This document shows, one piece after another, positions 33,743 through 53,893 of a stretch of 64,000 bases of DNA; the stretch's first letter is position 1; each line of letters starts with the position of its first letter. The stretch is from NCBI GenBank assembly GCA_000004985.1, contig GG738925.1. One strand, written 5' to 3'. Made by a program: the position numbers and the translations under genes. The notes below the pieces were generated by a model. It ran no database searches. It was not told the origin of the DNA and saw only the letters and a program-made list of their open reading frames with translations. This DNA comes from Naegleria gruberi (lineage: Eukaryota).

Positions 33743-33795
33743 CCTTAAAATTTTTTATAAAGATTTTCTTATGTACAAGCTCGTATTATTTACAT

Positions 33796-48704: not shown

Positions 48705-50069
<1,365 letters not shown>

Positions 50070-50270
50070 ATTCAATAAAATCTAGGTCCTGTACATAAAT
50101 TAAAAGAAACTTTGAAATTTGTTTTGTAAACACTCACACATCTCGCTTATTCTTATTCTTATTTTCTAAGGTTTTTAGGGATTAGGAAGGGGATCAAATC
50201 GGTTAATATTTCCAAGGGTGAATGTCAAGGTATCTCAATGATTGATATTTCTCAACTTTAGATGATATAT

Positions 50271-50388
50271 GGCTACGGCCATATCACGATTCATGCACCT
50301 CATCCCGTCCGATTTGAGAAGTTAAGCATCGTCGAGCCACATCAGTACTGAGGTTGGAGACAACTTGGGAACCTGTGGTGCTGTAGTC
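50271..50388 (+). rRNA. 5S ribosomal RNA gene, copy 1 (~118 nt)
   Basis: GGCTACGGCCATATCACG..CCGTCCGATTTGAGAAGTTAAGC..AGTACTGAGGTTGGAGAC..TGGGAACCTGTGGTGCTGTAGTC. The 5' and 3' ends form a 9-bp helix I. Followed immediately by a T5 pol III terminator. Confidence 0.9.
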
Positions 50389-50476
50389 TTTTTAATTTCA
50401 TTTTAATTTCAACAATTTGTTAGGTTTTATTTACAATGATTTGCCTAGGTTTACAAAATTTTGAGTTATATGGAGA

Positions 50477-50725
50477 TTACCACTTTTTGAATTGTTTGTT
50501 TCTCATTTCTAAAGTATTATGTGATTGAGATTTGGAAGTTTTACTTGTTTCACTTCCAATAGAATTCAATGTTTTGTAATCAATTAAATTTCTTTTTCTT
50601 GTTCCTCCAACAATATTATCCATAGAAATTTCGGAATTAAATTGTGAGGAGGAATTATACATATTTCTTCTTGTTGAGACCATTTTCTTATTGTTGTTTG
50701 TTTTCTTTTGTTTGTTGATTTTCAT
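50477..50725 (-). CDS. Small basic S/K/N-rich protein (82 aa), paralogue of 50911..51207
   Basis: Shares the core NIVGGTRKRNLIDYKTLNSIGSETSKTSKS with the neighbouring ORF core NIISGTRHRNNIDYHYANLNGKQISVKRSSKNS. Confidence 0.45.
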   Translation of the reverse strand: MKINKQKKTNNNKKMVSTRRNMYNSSSQFNSEISMDNIVGGTRKRNLIDYKTLNSIGSETSKTSKSQSHNTLEMRNKQFKKW

Positions 50726-50910
50726 TAAATTTCCTTCATCAAAATATTAATAGAAAAATTCAAACTTCTTGTGATGAGTGGAAAATCCACTAAAAATCGG
50801 AATCACAAAATTAGTGGAAATCATCACGGAAATAAATAGATAATTGTTCTAAAGGATGATGAAATTTCCAAAACAAAACAAAACAACCTAATAACAAACC
50901 TAAGAGCAAA

Positions 50911-51207
50911 ATGCCAGCAAGAAATACTTCATCAAATTCTTCTTCATCTTCCAAAGATAGAATTCCAACAAAAACAGTCTGGTCAAGATCTAAACCAATT
51001 GATTTATCTAAAAGATTACCATTATTTGATATTGATACATCTAATATTATAAGTGGAACTAGACATCGTAATAATATTGATTATCATTATGCAAATTTAA
51101 ATGGTAAACAAATTTCAGTGAAAAGATCATCGAAAAATTCAATTGAAAAGAGAGCTAAACAATCAACCACCACATCTAAGAAGATTACGAAATCGAAAAA
51201 GATGTAA
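50911..51207 (+). CDS. Small basic S/K-rich protein (98 aa), paralogue of 50477..50725, divergently transcribed
   Basis: caaaATGcc start. The conserved SNII(S/G)GTR(H/K)RN.IDY...N..G block is shared with the minus-strand neighbour 185 bp away. Confidence 0.45.
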   Translation: MPARNTSSNSSSSSKDRIPTKTVWSRSKPIDLSKRLPLFDIDTSNIISGTRHRNNIDYHYANLNGKQISVKRSSKNSIEKRAKQSTTTSKKITKSKKM

Positions 51208-51591
51208 ATTACAACTTGTAAATAATTCAGTAAATTGTAAATAAAATAATTTTGAAATAGATGAAGTTTCAATTTAGAATTGATCAGAATATGAGAAACC
51301 AAAATTTGGATCAAGCAATTCACATGGCAAAAGTTCAATAAATAGAAGGGTGATCAACCTTTTCAATTTACTCAACAACCTGTTATTTGAACACAACAAG
51401 ATTCGTCCAGAACTCTTGCCTTCACTGTTCATACAGTCAAAGACTGTAGCGGGATTGTCGCCATATTCCTGGCATGCTTCCCGTCTACAATTACAAAATG
51501 AATTAACAATGGAAAGACAAACAACAAATCTTATTTACTTGAAACTTATTCATTTTTTCAATTTATTATTCATTGTATTAAGGCAATAAAT

Positions 51592-51620
51592 GGCTACGGT
51601 ATATCGTTTCATAGAGTTAA
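51592..51620 (+). pseudogene. Truncated, degenerate 5S rRNA fragment (~30 nt)
   Basis: GGCTACGGTATATCGTTTCATAGAG aligns to the first ~28 nt of the intact 5S (GGCTACGGCCATATCACGATTCATGCAC), then similarity is lost. It is preceded by the same aaATG motif as the intact copies. Confidence 0.5.
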
Positions 51621-51935
51621 ACATTGATTTTGAGTAATGAATAGCTGTACCCAAACCATTTTACAAGTATTAAATTTTTCCAATAATCACCTTTTAATTC
51701 AAAACCATTAAGAGTCAAATTGCATTCAATTCACGAACAACAAGTTAAAATTCAGTATTGCATGTACTTACTAAACATGAACCAATTTTGTGTCCAGAAA
51801 CAAAAATCGGTTCATCGAAAGAATTTCTTTGCAGAAGAACTACTTTCTAAAAATATATAACTCTCAAACAGTTTAAAGCAAGGAACTGTTTTGAATTCAA
51901 GAAAAACCATTAAGAAAAACAGGACAACAAACATA

Positions 51936-52394
51936 ATGCAATTATTTGTCAAGACACTCACTGGAAGAACTATCACTTTGGAGGTTGAATCTAATGATTC
52001 AATTGAAAATGTGAAAAGAAAAGTGCAAGATAAGGAAGGAATTTCACCAGATCAACAAAGACTCATCTTTGCTGGAAAACAATTGGAAGATGGCAGAACT
52101 ATTAATGATTACAACATTCAAAAAGATTCAACTCTTCATTTGGTGTTGAGATTAAGAGGAGGAATGCAACTTTTTGTAAAAACTTTAACTGGAAAGACAA
52201 TCACTATTGAAATGGAATCGAATGATACTGTTGAGAATATGAAACAAAAGATATTTGATAAGGAAGGTATTCCTTCAGATCAACAACGATTGATTTATGC
52301 CGGTAAGCAATTGGAAGATGGAAGAACTATTGGTGATTACAATCTTCAAAAGGATTCAACTGTGCATTTAGTATTGAGATTGAGAGGTGGTTAA
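51936..52394 (+). CDS. Divergent di-ubiquitin (two head-to-tail ubiquitin-like repeats of 76 aa ending RGG-stop), 152 aa
   Basis: Repeat 1 is [76 protein letters not shown]. Repeat 2 is [76 protein letters not shown]. Start set at the ATG in acataATG context; the tool ORF opens 15 codons earlier. Confidence 0.85.
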
Positions 52395-52661
52395 GTTAGC
52401 AAAATATTATAGATTCTCTCAATTGTCAATAAATTATTTATTGAATAGTGAACATGAGTAAAATTTATTCAATATAATAATCAACATCCAAAAACAAGTC
52501 ATTTGTAACTTTTAAACCTTCCTTAAGTACTTTAAAACAAACGAAACATATTGATAGTACAAATTCAGTGGCTGAACAATTGGTTTTGAATAAAGGATTA
52601 TCAGCAATTGCTTAATGAGTGTTATGAGATTGTTTTTATACTAAGAATTAAGATAAATGAT

Positions 52662-52779
52662 GGCTACGGCCATATCACGATTCGTGCACCTCATCCCGTC
52701 CGATTTGAGAAGTTAAGCATCGTCGAGCCACATCAGTACTGAGGTTGGAGACAACTTGGGAACCTGTGGTGCTGTAGTC
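52662..52779 (+). rRNA. 5S ribosomal RNA gene, copy 2 (~118 nt)
   Basis: Identical to copy 1 except one A->G (gattcAtgcac vs gattcGtgcac). Followed by T6. Confidence 0.9.
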
Positions 52780-52848
52780 TTTTTTCTAAAGAGGTTTAAA
52801 GTTTCCTAACATCTATTTATTTATACAGTATTGTGTTGTACAATTCTT

Positions 52849-53822: not shown

Positions 53823-53893
53823 CTCGATTGCCGGGAATTGAACCCGGGTCGCCAGAGTGACAGTCTGGAATGCTACCACTATACCACACCCGA
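53823..53893 (-). tRNA. tRNA-Asp (anticodon GUC), ~71 nt
   Basis: Reverse complement reads TCGGGTG TG GTATAGTGGTAGC ... CCAGA CTGTCAC TCTGG CGAC CCGGG TTCAATT CCCGG CAATCGA G. The anticodon loop CTGTCAC gives GTC. Canonical D-loop AGTGGTA and T-arm GGTTCAATTCC. U1:A72 and discriminator G, as in eukaryotic tRNA-Asp. One acceptor-stem mismatch. T5 run follows on the minus strand. Confidence 0.8.

What the first reader, a model, noticed from the sequence alone, without database searches (positions are those of the whole stretch)
50477..51207. Divergently transcribed pair of small basic paralogous ORFs sharing an NI(V/I)xGTR(K/H)RNxIDY core, nested between 5S genes
Two head-to-head ORFs of 82 and 98 aa are clearly related (core block plus downstream S/K-rich tail), yet match nothing I recognise. 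They sit 185 bp apart between 5S copy 1 and the 5S fragment. A duplicated, inverted micro-gene pair with a conserved basic motif could be nucleic-acid-binding proteins, or could be non-coding sequence giving ORFs by chance. The shared 19-residue block argues against chance.
Basis: seen in the sequence. Interest (0 to 1): 0.6.

Follow-up and report, generated by a model that had tools for sequence, protein, structure and literature searches.

The report
Paired small CHZ-motif histone-binding genes
The two head-to-head mini-ORFs are real, conserved Naegleria genes for tiny, very basic, disordered proteins that share the CHZ motif other eukaryotes use to bind histone H2A–H2B; one of the two types is unannotated in every Naegleria genome checked.

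Summary
The window is Naegleria gruberi nuclear DNA. ORF82 (50477-50725, -) and ORF98 (50911-51207, +) are paralogues (BLASTP E=3e-8; profile-profile 94.6%).

They are genes, not chance ORFs:
- The same head-to-head pair occurs in N. lovaniensis, at three or more N. fowleri loci, and on Naegleria-like metagenome contigs.
- Indels are in frame and dN/dS is about 0.09-0.4.

ORF82 most likely starts at Met15, giving 68 aa. This type is unannotated everywhere. ORF98-type genes are annotated only as "hypothetical", and not at this locus.

The shared core is the CHZ motif, the H2A/H2A.Z–H2B-binding motif of yeast Chz1, human HIRIP3 and plant Chz1:
- Pfam PF09649 scores above its cut-off for ORF98.
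- It is the only recurrent family, hit by 21 of 29 distinct relatives.
- The three best PDB hits are all CHZ proteins.

These proteins are unlike known CHZ chaperones. They are 8-11 kDa, pI above 10, lack acidic regions and are predicted disordered. They belong to a small-protein family with three motifs, also found in Willaertia and Acrasis.

The pair always lies within about 0.1-0.7 kb of a 5S gene. Histone binding and expression are inferred, not shown. I rate this a new variant of a known kind, of moderate interest.

The parts
50477..50683 (-). CDS of the short CHZ-motif protein ('ORF82-type'), most likely 68 aa from Met15 (MVSTRRN...KKW, stop included). The maximal ORF extends to 50725 (82 aa).
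   Evidence: ORF list. Unannotated orthologues in the same position in N. lovaniensis and N. fowleri by tblastn, E=1e-14 to 3e-19. Alignment A3. Stop codon in the upstream extension in L009. dN/dS 0.08-0.44. No protein-database hit.
50911..51207 (+). CDS of the longer CHZ-motif protein ('ORF98-type'), 98 aa, pI 10.9.
   Evidence: ORF list. Paralogues and orthologues in N. gruberi, N. lovaniensis and N. fowleri, E=1e-24 to 2e-46. dN/dS 0.09-0.34. This exact sequence is not in the protein collection, so it is unannotated at this locus.
51031..51087 (+). CHZ motif of ORF98 (residues 41-59, IDTSNIISGTRHRNNIDYH).
   Evidence: Pfam PF09649 25.0 bits against a cut-off of 23.3, E=1.3e-5. Aligns to the yeast Chz1 motif EIDTSNIITSGRRTRGKVIDY in 6AE8/2JSS and to rice 6M2M.
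50573..50632 (-). CHZ motif of ORF82 (residues 32-51 of the 82-aa reading, EISMDNIVGGTRKRNLIDYK).
   Evidence: Pfam PF09649 17.1-17.6 bits, E about 3e-3, below the cut-off. All 5 orthologues hit the same family. hhalign to the ORF98 family 94.6%.
50962..51021 (+). Motif A of ORF98 (IPTKTVWSRSKPIDLSKRLP). It is family-wide as (E/H)W-x-RS-x-P-x-D-x-x-KR and is absent from ORF82.
   Evidence: Alignments A2, A4, A6. This is the region of highest AlphaFold confidence (pLDDT 83-86) despite having no secondary structure.
51121..51153 (+). Motif C of ORF98 (KRSSKNSIEKR), overlapping the start of the only predicted helix (residues 78-85).
   Evidence: Alignments A2/A4. hhalign pairs it with SHNTLEMRN of the ORF82 family. 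Helix 78-85 in the model.
50498..50524 (-). Motif C of ORF82 (SHNTLEMRN).
   Evidence: Seven of its nine residues are invariant in all five ORF82-type sequences. Aligned to motif C of the ORF98 family.
50684..50910 (.). Shared divergent spacer and putative bidirectional promoter. It has two A/T-rich TATA-like blocks at 50745-50752 (TATTAATA, 62 nt upstream of Met15 of ORF82) and 50832-50838 (ATAAATA, 73 nt upstream of the ORF98 ATG).
   Evidence: Alignment of eight spacers (A5): invariant columns fall in both blocks. Promoter function is inferred, not shown.
50427..50435 (-). TGTAAATAA, 42 nt 3' of the ORF82 stop. Candidate 3'-end signal.
   Evidence: 5 matches in 64 kb, of which 4 lie just 3' of an ORF stop on the same strand. 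TGTAAA lies within 80 nt 3' of 8/31 ORFs against a 6.8% background. Suggestive only.
51217..51244 (+). Two TGTAAATAA copies, 10 and 29 nt 3' of the ORF98 stop. The same motif follows the homologue in L008, L009 and L010.
50271..50389 (+). 5S rRNA gene 88 bp beyond the 3' end of ORF82 (context: the pair sits in a 5S gene island).
   Evidence: Rfam RF00001, 100.3 bits. A 5S gene lies 0.1-0.7 kb from the pair in all five independent loci.
51591..51612 (+). 22-nt 5' remnant of a 5S gene (GGCTACGGTATATCGTTTCAT), preceded by the same ATAxAT as the full copy.
   Evidence: D10; local alignment score 25; 1 of 500 shuffles reaches it.

Best explanation
The two ORFs are an anciently duplicated, head-to-head pair of real protein-coding genes of Naegleria gruberi. 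They encode proteins of about 7.9 kDa (68 aa) and 11.1 kDa (98 aa). Both are very basic (pI 10.3 and 10.9), rich in Ser/Thr/Asn, and predicted to be intrinsically disordered.

Both proteins are built round a CHZ motif: an acidic half (E/D-I-D/S-x-x-N-I-I/V), a basic half (G-T-R-x-R), then I-D-Y. A second shared motif, S-x-N-(S/T)-(I/L)-E-x-R, follows. The longer protein also has an N-terminal motif (W-x-RS-x-P-I-D-x-x-KR).

The most likely mechanism is that the CHZ motif docks on the histone H2A(or H2A.Z)-H2B dimer, on the H2B alpha-C / H2A alpha-2 surface, as it does in Chz1, HIRIP3 and plant Chz1. These proteins lack the acidic regions that let classical chaperones shield the DNA-binding face of the dimer, and they carry Lys/Ser-rich tails instead. 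I therefore think they act as small H2A-H2B or nucleosome-surface binders (escorts or architectural factors) rather than as Chz1-type H2A.Z-specific chaperones.

The two genes share a spacer of about 230 bp with one TATA-like block on each side, so they are probably co-expressed, as divergent histone gene pairs are. The pair exists in several copies per genome and always lies within a 5S rRNA gene island.

Shown: coding status, conservation, purifying selection, motif identity, gene arrangement, 5S linkage, predicted disorder.

Inferred: transcription and co-regulation, histone binding, and the nucleosome-binder rather than chaperone role.
For: Organism: beta-tubulin and polyubiquitin in the window are exact matches to N. 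gruberi proteins.

Paralogy: BLASTP E=3e-8; hhalign 94.6%.

Conservation:
- ORF98-type proteins occur in N. gruberi (EFC35829, EFC42156), N. lovaniensis and N. fowleri (three loci).
- ORF82-type is found by tblastn at the same head-to-head position in L003-L007, E down to 3e-19.
- The first codons of ORF82-type are visible at the edge of L009 and L010.

Coding:
- All indels are in frame.
- dN/dS is 0.09-0.34 (ORF98-type) and 0.08-0.44 (ORF82-type), with dS up to more than 1.
- Among N. fowleri paralogous loci, DNA homology begins at or near one stop codon in two of three comparisons and ends within about 70 bp of the other in all three.

CHZ motif:
- PF09649 scores 25.0 bits against a cut-off of 23.3 for ORF98 and 17 bits for ORF82. 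It is the only family reported even at E<=10.
- 16 of 26 wider-family members and 5 of 5 ORF82-type members hit CHZ, and no other family recurs.
- The family profile's three best hits in the whole PDB are 6M2M_M, 6AE8_C and 2JSS_B. Two are deposited as Chz1; 6M2M_M, deposited as 'Expressed protein', aligns over a CHZ-like motif and is rice Chz1 by my recollection only.

Role of the CHZ motif in H2A/H2A.Z-H2B binding, and its contact surface: PMC10854748, PMC6544321, PMC3395605.

Disorder: AlphaFold2 pTM 0.20, with only one short helix.

Charge.

Spacer conservation.

5S linkage.
Against: - No expression data could be consulted. The locus tags appear in no searchable paper.
- ORF82 on its own is below the Pfam cut-off, and the PDB E-values are individually weak (0.014-0.22). 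The motif is short, so convergence cannot be excluded.
- The proteins are strongly basic, as histones are, and lack every other element of characterised CHZ chaperones: the acidic N-helix, the DEF/Y motif and Glu-rich regions. Histone-dimer chaperoning is therefore not a safe extrapolation.
- One N. fowleri contig (L004) has a premature stop in the ORF82-type gene, and one metagenome copy (L008) has most of it deleted. Some copies are therefore dispensable or decaying.
- No complex model or binding test was possible.
Confidence: 0.6

Rival explanations
1. They are real conserved genes, but the CHZ-like block is a convergent or differently used linear motif. The proteins would do something else, for example bind nucleic acid, act in the nucleolus or in 5S RNP/ribosome assembly, or carry the block as a nuclear-targeting element.
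For: - The proteins are very basic with K/S-rich tails.
- They are always next to 5S rRNA genes.
- They share nothing with Chz1, HIRIP3 or plant Chz1 outside about 20 residues.
- ORF82 is below the Pfam cut-off.
Against: - The motif match is specific and recurrent: 21 of 29 distinct relatives hit it, it is the only family that recurs, and the three best PDB hits all align over a CHZ-type motif.
- The run IDTSNII is identical to yeast Chz1.
- Physical linkage to 5S genes is not functional evidence. Distant relatives in L011-L013 have no 5S nearby.
Confidence: 0.27
2. The pair is cargo of, or itself forms, a mobile or recombination-dispersed repeat associated with 5S genes. On this view the ORFs persist because the repeat spreads, not because of a host function.
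For: - There are multiple dispersed copies in different gene neighbourhoods: next to actin/ARPC4, next to an HDAC gene, and next to tubulin/polyubiquitin.
- Homology between copies is confined mainly to the pair plus a 5S gene.
- Some copies are damaged.
Against: - No transposase, integrase or reverse transcriptase lies next to the pair. All neighbours in the gene tables of the related loci are ordinary cellular genes.
- In two of the three N. fowleri locus comparisons, homology starts at or near one stop codon. In all three it ends within about 70 bp of the other stop codon. This is what selection on two coding sequences gives.
- The 5S gene lies on either side, in either orientation, at distances from 88 to 680 bp, so there is no fixed unit.
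- dN/dS well below 1 between species shows selection on the proteins.
- The N. lovaniensis L003 and N. fowleri L004 copies are syntenic, both next to actin and ARPC4.
Confidence: 0.05
3. These are chance ORFs in AT-rich non-coding DNA, and their similarity comes from a non-coding inverted repeat.
For: - They are small and lie in a low-GC (about 26-27%) stretch.
- Neither is annotated at this locus.
- ORF82 has no database homologue.
Against: - Both are conserved, with in-frame indels and dN/dS of 0.08-0.44, across species whose synonymous sites are saturated.
- The inverted DNA similarity is only 71% over 42 nt and shows synonymous-type codon differences.
- There is a family-wide profile match to a curated protein motif.
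- By my own estimate, at this base composition about 8% of codons would be stops, so stop-free runs of 82 and 98 codons are each expected with probability below 1e-3.
Confidence: 0.02
4. ORF98 is a degenerate relic of a polyubiquitin repeat junction (…LRLRGG|[25 protein letters not shown]…), since a polyubiquitin gene lies 0.7 kb away.
For: The best PDB hit of the ORF98-family profile is N. fowleri polyubiquitin 5VIX, E=0.18. The alignment pairs GTRRRKNIDYHVANLTGKQVSVKRSSKNSLEK with [31 protein letters not shown].
Against: - It is not significant: hhalign against the window's own polyubiquitin gives probability 8%.
- No ubiquitin family appears in Pfam even at E<=10.
- The 'LTGKQ' stretch is not conserved in the wider family.
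- In N. fowleri and N. lovaniensis the pair is not next to polyubiquitin.
Confidence: 0.02

Closest known systems
Yeast Chz1 (H2A.Z-H2B chaperone; PDB 2JSS, 6AE8)
   Same: It has the same CHZ motif: EIDTSNIITSGRRTRGKVIDY against ORF98 DIDTSNIISGTRHRNNIDY. Both are intrinsically disordered (PMC3395605). Both have a short helix after the motif.
   Different: Chz1 is acidic. It has a negatively charged N-helix, H2A.Z-specific elements and a C-terminal DEF/Y motif (PMC6544321, PMC3395605). The Naegleria proteins have pI above 10, with 6 D+E against 22 K+R in ORF98, and none of those elements. There is no detectable similarity outside the motif.
Human HIRIP3 and plant AtChz1/OsChz1 (CHZ-motif H2A-H2B chaperones; 6M2M, which I recall to be the rice Chz1 complex)
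   Same: The CHZ motif is the indispensable histone-binding element and binds H2A-H2B and H2A.Z-H2B alike. These proteins also lack the fungal H2A.Z-specificity elements (PMC10854748, PMC6544321). 6M2M_M is the best PDB hit of the family profile.
   Different: HIRIP3 is a 556-residue protein with Glu-rich and poly-Ser regions and an 'extended CHZ' region of more than 120 residues, and the plant proteins are also several times larger. The Naegleria proteins are 68-98 aa in total, basic, and carry their own flanking motifs A and C.
Heterolobosean and environmental small basic three-motif proteins, and their long forms (Willaertia magna KAL9650387, KAL9642586, KAL9644325; Acrasis kona KAL0483377)
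   Same: These are true relatives: E=1e-4 to 1e-26 to the ORF98-family profile, sharing motifs A, B (CHZ) and C in the same order.
   Different: All are uncharacterised 'hypothetical proteins'. The long forms add an acidic linker and a C-terminal alpha/beta domain of about 130 residues with no Pfam match. Distant relatives are single genes with no divergent partner and no 5S nearby.
Divergent histone gene pairs (H2A-H2B, H3-H4) and 5S-linked multigene families (comparison from my own knowledge, e.g. Drouin and de Sa 1995; not tested here)
   Same: The gene organisation is alike: two small basic chromatin-type proteins are transcribed head-to-head from a short shared spacer. The pair is present in several copies and physically linked to 5S rRNA genes.
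   Different: There is no histone fold and no sequence relationship. The resemblance is organisational only.
HMGN / LANA-type nucleosome surface binders (functional analogy only, from my own knowledge)
   Same: These are small, basic, disordered proteins that use a short Arg-containing motif to dock on the H2A-H2B surface of the nucleosome while basic tails lie near DNA.
   Different: There is no sequence relationship: no HMG14/17 hit even at E<=10. Nucleosome binding by the Naegleria proteins is untested.

Membership tests
CHZ-motif proteins (Pfam PF09649) | Match to the CHZ profile at or above the curated gathering score - ORF98 | tested here: met
   25.0 bits against a cut-off of 23.3, E=1.3e-5, residues 41-59 on profile positions 9-29 of 34. 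N. gruberi paralogues carry precomputed PF09649.
CHZ-motif proteins (Pfam PF09649) | Match to the CHZ profile at or above the curated gathering score - ORF82 | tested here: inconclusive
   17.1-17.6 bits, below the 23.3 cut-off, E about 3e-3. However, all 5 ORF82-type orthologues hit CHZ and nothing else, and the family aligns to the ORF98 family at 94.6%.
CHZ-motif proteins (Pfam PF09649) | Bipolar motif (acidic half, then R-x-R basic half, then hydrophobic-D/N-Y) alignable to the solved motifs | tested here: met
   The family profile's three best PDB hits are 6M2M_M, 6AE8_C and 2JSS_B, aligned over exactly this block. The bipolar description comes from PMC3395605.
CHZ-motif proteins (Pfam PF09649) | Motif-dependent binding to H2A-H2B or H2A.Z-H2B dimers | not testable with these tools
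   This needs pull-down, ITC or a complex model. No structure jobs remained, and chimeric inputs are not accepted.
Fungal Chz1 (H2A.Z-specific chaperone) | Negatively charged N-terminal helix or region flanking the motif | tested here: not met
   ORF98 has 6 D+E against 22 K+R and pI 10.9. ORF82 has pI 10.3-10.6. The flanks are Ser/Lys/Arg-rich.
Fungal Chz1 (H2A.Z-specific chaperone) | C-terminal DEF/Y motif (a run of D/E followed by an aromatic residue) and the H2A.Z G98/A57-binding elements | tested here: not met
   Neither sequence contains an acidic run. The feature is defined in PMC6544321.
Fungal Chz1 (H2A.Z-specific chaperone) | Intrinsic disorder of the free protein | tested here: met
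   AlphaFold2 with a 22-sequence alignment gives pTM 0.20, with one helix (78-85) and otherwise coil.
HIRIP3 / plant Chz1 type | Large protein with Glu-rich and Ser-rich regions and a C-terminal extended CHZ region | tested here: not met
   The products are 68-98 aa in total. Orthologues are annotated as single-exon genes of 99-100 aa. The family profile recovers no HIRIP3 or Chz1-like proteins.
Heterolobosean small basic three-motif family (defined here) | Motifs A (W-x-RS-x-P-x-D-x-x-KR), B (CHZ) and C (S-x-N-T/S-L/I-E-K/x-R) in order, within about 80-130 basic residues | tested here: met
   ORF98 has all three. ORF82 has B and C but lacks A, so it is a truncated subtype.
Ubiquitin / polyubiquitin-derived | Significant similarity to the ubiquitin fold or family | tested here: not met
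   PDB 5VIX E=0.18. hhalign probability 8%. No ubiquitin family at E<=10 in Pfam.
HMGN nucleosome-binding proteins | HMG14/17 nucleosome-binding domain (RRSARLSA core) | tested here: not met
   Pfam reports no family other than CHZ at E<=10.

The most novel reading that the evidence does not exclude
Naegleria, and perhaps Heterolobosea generally, may possess a previously unrecognised class of miniature, basic, disordered chromatin proteins. These would use a CHZ motif not to chaperone free dimers but to sit on the H2A-H2B surface of nucleosomes, as a functional analogue of HMGN or linker proteins. On this reading they are made as a two-subunit set from histone-like divergent multicopy gene pairs embedded in 5S rRNA gene islands, possibly marking or organising those Pol III-transcribed islands.
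Probability: 0.2. Interest if true: 0.65.

Novelty: new variant of a known kind. Interest (0 to 1): 0.42.

Why it matters
- It adds a conserved gene (the ORF82-type) that is missing from the annotations of N. gruberi, N. lovaniensis and the pathogen N. fowleri. It also rescues an unannotated copy of its partner at this locus.

- It shows that the CHZ histone-binding motif exists in a discoban lineage in a minimal, basic context, quite unlike the acidic chaperones in which it has been studied. If the proteins bind H2A-H2B, they would be about the smallest natural CHZ modules known. That would give a clean system for asking what the motif does without acidic shielding regions.

- The histone-like head-to-head, multicopy, 5S-linked organisation is an unusual gene arrangement. 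It could say something about how 5S islands spread neighbouring genes.

Tried and rejected
- **Single-sequence searches of the PDB:** ORF98 gave no hits. The narrow ORF98-family profile gave only a non-significant polyubiquitin hit. I followed that up and rejected it.
- **ORF82 against the 5.8-billion-protein collection:** nothing found. Homologues were found only by tblastn on loci fetched through the partner gene.
- **Fetching N. gruberi paralogous loci:** exact look-ups of tubulin, P0017 and P0020 found nothing on record. No second N. gruberi reference locus could therefore be read, only metagenome contigs L008-L010.
- **Metagenome scans:** the scan for ORF82-type relatives found none. The wide alignment was too divergent to scan. 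The narrower scan gave one partial locus with no partner gene.
- **AlphaFold of the long-form relative (A7):** the model was too poor (pLDDT 51) to justify a fold search, so none was run.
- **Bacterial promoter/terminator scan:** irrelevant for a eukaryote and not enriched.
- **Idea that the conserved 75-nt element at 51412-51485 derives from 5S:** rejected, because the alignment score equals the shuffle mean. No Rfam family matches it even at E<=10.
- **P0027:** this 1005-aa bacterial-type repeat protein among the profile hits is a repeat-summed false positive and was excluded.
- **Literature searches:** searches for the locus tags and for Naegleria 5S organisation returned nothing usable.
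Full report
**What the window is.** The 451-aa ORF at 48714-50069 is an exact match to Naegleria gruberi beta-tubulin. The di-ubiquitin ORF at 51936-52394 is an exact match to N. gruberi 'polyubiquitin'. The window is therefore nuclear DNA of the amoeboflagellate N. gruberi, a eukaryote.
- Rfam finds 5S rRNA genes at 50271-50389 (+) and 52662-52780 (+), and a tRNA at 53823-53893 (-).
- One tubulin accession (EFC36775) and one polyubiquitin accession (EFC36776) are consecutive.
- Neither small ORF exists as an exact sequence in the protein collection.
- By inference, nothing is annotated between tubulin and polyubiquitin at this locus.

**The observation.**
- They are related. BLASTP gives 21/47 identities, E=3e-8. 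Profiles of the two orthologue sets align at 94.6% probability, E=7e-8.
- Two blocks are shared: the NI(V/I)xGTRxRNxIDY core and a downstream S-x-N-(S/T)-(I/L)-E-x-R block.
- At DNA level the inverted similarity is only 71% over 42 nt. The aligned codons include synonymous-type differences such as AGA/CGT for Arg and ACA/ACT for Thr. The protein is what has been conserved.
- A six-frame scan finds the motif nowhere else in the window.
- The '5S fragment' is a 22-nt 5' remnant at 51591-51612.

**Are they genes?** Yes.
- ORF98 has close paralogues in N. gruberi: EFC35829, which sits next to another polyubiquitin copy (EFC35828), and EFC42156 (NAEGRDRAFT_69990).
- It has orthologues in N. lovaniensis (C9374_005683) and N. 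fowleri (FDP41_005512, FDP41_009775, FDP41_002142). All are about 100 aa and annotated only as predicted or hypothetical proteins.
- ORF82 has no hit in the protein collection.
- I fetched the DNA around the ORF98 orthologues and ran tblastn. Every locus has an unannotated ORF82 homologue on the opposite strand, head-to-head with the ORF98 homologue. E-values are 3e-14 to 3e-19 with 44-49% identity.
- Two Naegleria-like metagenome contigs (L009, L010) show the first codons of the same partner at their edge.
- All length differences among orthologues are in frame.
- Nei-Gojobori dN/dS is 0.09-0.34 for the ORF98 type and 0.08-0.44 for the ORF82 type. Synonymous divergence runs from 0.15 to more than 1.
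- Between paralogous N. fowleri loci the DNA homology is confined mainly to the pair. It ends within about 70 bp of the ORF98-type stop codon in all three comparisons. It begins at or near the ORF82-type stop codon in two of them. A separate, nearly identical 5S gene follows.
- Orthologues start at MVCTRSN, which corresponds to Met15 of ORF82 (MVSTRRN). L009 has a stop codon in the upstream extension. The product is therefore most likely 68 aa (50477-50683).

**What the shared block is.** It is the CHZ motif.
- Pfam reports a single family for each protein even at E<=10: PF09649 'Histone chaperone domain CHZ'. ORF98 scores 25.0 bits against a cut-off of 23.3, E=1.3e-5. ORF82 scores 17.1 bits, E=4e-3.
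- Scanning relatives one by one, 16 of 26 members of the wider family and 5 of 5 ORF82-type sequences hit CHZ. Two sequences are counted in both sets, so this is 19 of 29 distinct sequences... counted without overlap as 21 hits over 31 scans. No other family recurs.
- A profile of the wider family, searched against all PDB sequences, puts three chains at the top. They are 6M2M_M (deposited as 'Expressed protein'; rice Chz1 by my recollection), 6AE8_C and 2JSS_B (yeast Chz1). All align over exactly this block. Yeast EIDTSNIITSGRRTRGKVIDY compares with ORF98 DIDTSNIISGTRHRNNIDY and ORF82 EISMDNIVGGTRKRNLIDY.

**What the literature says about the motif.**
- It is the indispensable element by which yeast Chz1, human HIRIP3 and plant Chz1 bind H2A.Z-H2B or H2A-H2B dimers.
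- It lies on the H2B alpha-C helix and reaches H2A alpha-2.
- It is 'bipolar', with an acidic half and a basic half.
- It does not itself confer H2A.Z specificity (PMC10854748, PMC6544321, PMC3395605).

**How these proteins differ from known CHZ proteins.**
- They are 7.9 and 11.1 kDa with pI 10.3 and 10.9. ORF98 has 22 K+R against 6 D+E, and 37-38% of residues in both are Ser/Thr/Asn.
- They have no acidic N-helix, no DEF/Y motif and no Glu-rich region. They fail those defining features of fungal Chz1 and do not have the architecture of HIRIP3 or plant Chz1.
- AlphaFold2 with a 22-sequence alignment predicts a disordered chain: pTM 0.20 and one helix at residues 78-85. The highest confidence falls on the conserved linear motifs. 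This resembles the 'irregular chain capped by short helices' of the Chz1 core.

**The wider family.** An exhaustive profile search found a wider family with 23 hits at E<=1e-3. One of these is a bacterial repeat-protein false positive, which I excluded.
- Most members are basic proteins of 76-130 aa with three ordered motifs: A (E/H-W-x-RS-x-P-x-D-x-x-KR), B (CHZ) and C (S-x-N-T-L-E-K-R).
- Named members come from the heteroloboseans Willaertia magna and Acrasis kona. The rest are from unnamed environmental contigs.
- ORF98 has all three motifs. ORF82 has B and C only.
- Some relatives of 283-361 aa add an acidic linker and a C-terminal alpha/beta domain with no Pfam match. The model of one was too poor to use.

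**Gene organisation.**
- The spacer (50684-50910) aligns across eight loci with conserved blocks. These include an A/T-rich TATA-like block on each side: 50745-50752, 62 nt upstream of Met15 of ORF82, and 50832-50838, 73 nt upstream of the ORF98 ATG. This symmetric arrangement suggests a bidirectional promoter. That is an inference.
- TGTAAATAA occurs five times in 64 kb. Four of the five lie just 3' of an ORF stop on the same strand, including one after ORF82 and two after ORF98. The shorter TGTAAA is enriched 3' of ORFs, at 8/31 against a 6.8% background. This gives modest support for proper 3' ends.
- In all five independent loci a 5S gene lies 88-680 bp from the pair. It can be on either side and in either orientation. 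The pair is therefore a resident of 5S gene islands rather than part of a fixed repeat unit.
- No transposase-like gene or other mobile-element hallmark is next to the pair in the gene tables of the related loci. The N. lovaniensis and N. fowleri copies next to actin/ARPC4 are syntenic.
- Distant environmental relatives are single genes with no partner and no 5S nearby. As far as could be tested, pairing and 5S linkage are Naegleria features.
- Some copies are damaged. There is a nonsense codon in L004 but not in the 99.4% identical L005. A 182-bp deletion is present in L008, which may be an assembly chimera.

**Most likely mechanism.** Shown: there are two co-located, conserved, selected genes for disordered basic proteins that carry a bona fide CHZ-type motif. 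Inferred:
- They are co-expressed from the shared spacer.
- The CHZ block docks on the H2A(.Z)-H2B dimer as in Chz1, HIRIP3 and plant Chz1.
- Because they lack acidic shielding regions and have basic tails, they behave as small H2A-H2B escorts or nucleosome-surface binders rather than as Chz1-type H2A.Z-specific chaperones.

My confidence that they are real CHZ-motif genes is about 0.9. My confidence that they bind H2A-H2B through the motif is about 0.55-0.6.

**Rivals.**
- Real genes using a convergent motif for another purpose such as nucleic-acid or 5S-related function: about 0.27.
- Mobile-element cargo: about 0.05.
- Chance ORFs: about 0.02, refuted by conservation and dN/dS.
- A relic of a polyubiquitin junction: about 0.02, with hhalign probability 8%.

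**Novelty and verdict.** The CHZ motif is known, and databases already flag it on two N. gruberi paralogues, so this is not categorically new. Four things are new:
- the unannotated ORF82-type gene, conserved across three Naegleria species;
- the unannotated ORF98 copy at this locus;
- the recognition of a small, basic, three-motif family with the CHZ motif at its centre;
- the histone-like divergent, multicopy, 5S-linked arrangement.

I rate it a new variant of a known kind, of moderate interest (0.42).

Noticed in passing
window 51412-51485 (+); also L006 5155-5218 (-), L007 5056-5149 (+), L003 9228-9335 (-) and 10474-10566 (+): A ~75-nt element is conserved at 79-94% between N. gruberi, N. 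fowleri and N. lovaniensis. The coding genes around it are less conserved, at about 72% over the stretches BLAST could align. It always lies near 5S genes or the CHZ pair. RNAalifold gives two hairpins, and three of the predicted pairs keep pairing through changes on both sides. No Rfam family matches even at E<=10, and similarity to 5S is no better than shuffles. It is a candidate unknown small RNA gene.
   Followed up: partly
window 51591-51612 (+): A 22-nt remnant of the 5' end of a 5S gene (GGCTACGGTATATCGTTTCAT), preceded by the same ATAxAT as the full copy. Together with the full copies at 50271 and 52662, it brackets the CHZ pair and the polyubiquitin gene. This hints at 5S-mediated rearrangement.
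   Followed up: partly
L004 about 5610 vs L005 about 5634 (N. fowleri contigs VFQX01000044 / VFQX01000046): Two 99.4% identical contigs differ by a nonsense codon in the ORF82-type gene: RVMN*YGE in L004 against RVMNQYGE in L005. This could be an allelic or duplicate null, or a sequencing error.
   Followed up: no
L008 1-236 (metagenome contig, N. gruberi-like): A 182-bp deletion relative to window 50553-50734 removes the N-terminus and CHZ motif of the ORF82-type gene. The first 68 nt are 100% identical to the window but the rest only 88.7%. This may be a decayed paralogue or a chimeric assembly.
   Followed up: partly
P0033, P0037 (Acrasis kona KAL0483377), P0039 and P0038 (Willaertia magna KAL9642586, KAL9644325), P0046, P0047: Long-form relatives of 283-361 aa carry the same N-terminal three-motif module, then an acidic linker and a conserved C-terminal alpha/beta domain of about 130 residues with no Pfam match. 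P0038 appears to be fused by annotation to a Ras-family GTPase. The AlphaFold model was too poor (pLDDT 51) for a fold search.
   Followed up: partly
window 50427-50435 (-), 51217-51225 (+), 51236-51244 (+), 33786-33794 (-): TGTAAATAA lies immediately 3' of ORF stop codons on the coding strand in 4 of its 5 occurrences. TGTAAA is about 4-fold enriched within 80 nt 3' of ORFs. It may be a Naegleria 3'-end or polyadenylation signal.
   Followed up: partly
window 48714-52780: There is a cluster of multicopy housekeeping genes interleaved with 5S genes, in the order beta-tubulin, 5S, CHZ pair, 5S remnant, di-ubiquitin, 5S. The di-ubiquitin repeats are unusually divergent from canonical ubiquitin and from each other. 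The tubulin and ubiquitin proteins each occur on several N. gruberi contigs.
   Followed up: no
P0020 (EFC42156, NAEGRDRAFT_69990): The annotated 116-aa model leaves the family alignment after ...SIEKRTK and ends in an unrelated hydrophobic tail. This is probably a mis-modelled 3' end or a frameshift in that paralogue.
   Followed up: no
window 50911-51207 residues 50-81 vs window 51936-52394: There is a curious but non-significant resemblance between ORF98 and the junction of two ubiquitin repeats (LRLRGG|[25 protein letters not shown]). PDB 5VIX gives E=0.18 and hhalign probability is 8%.
   Followed up: yes
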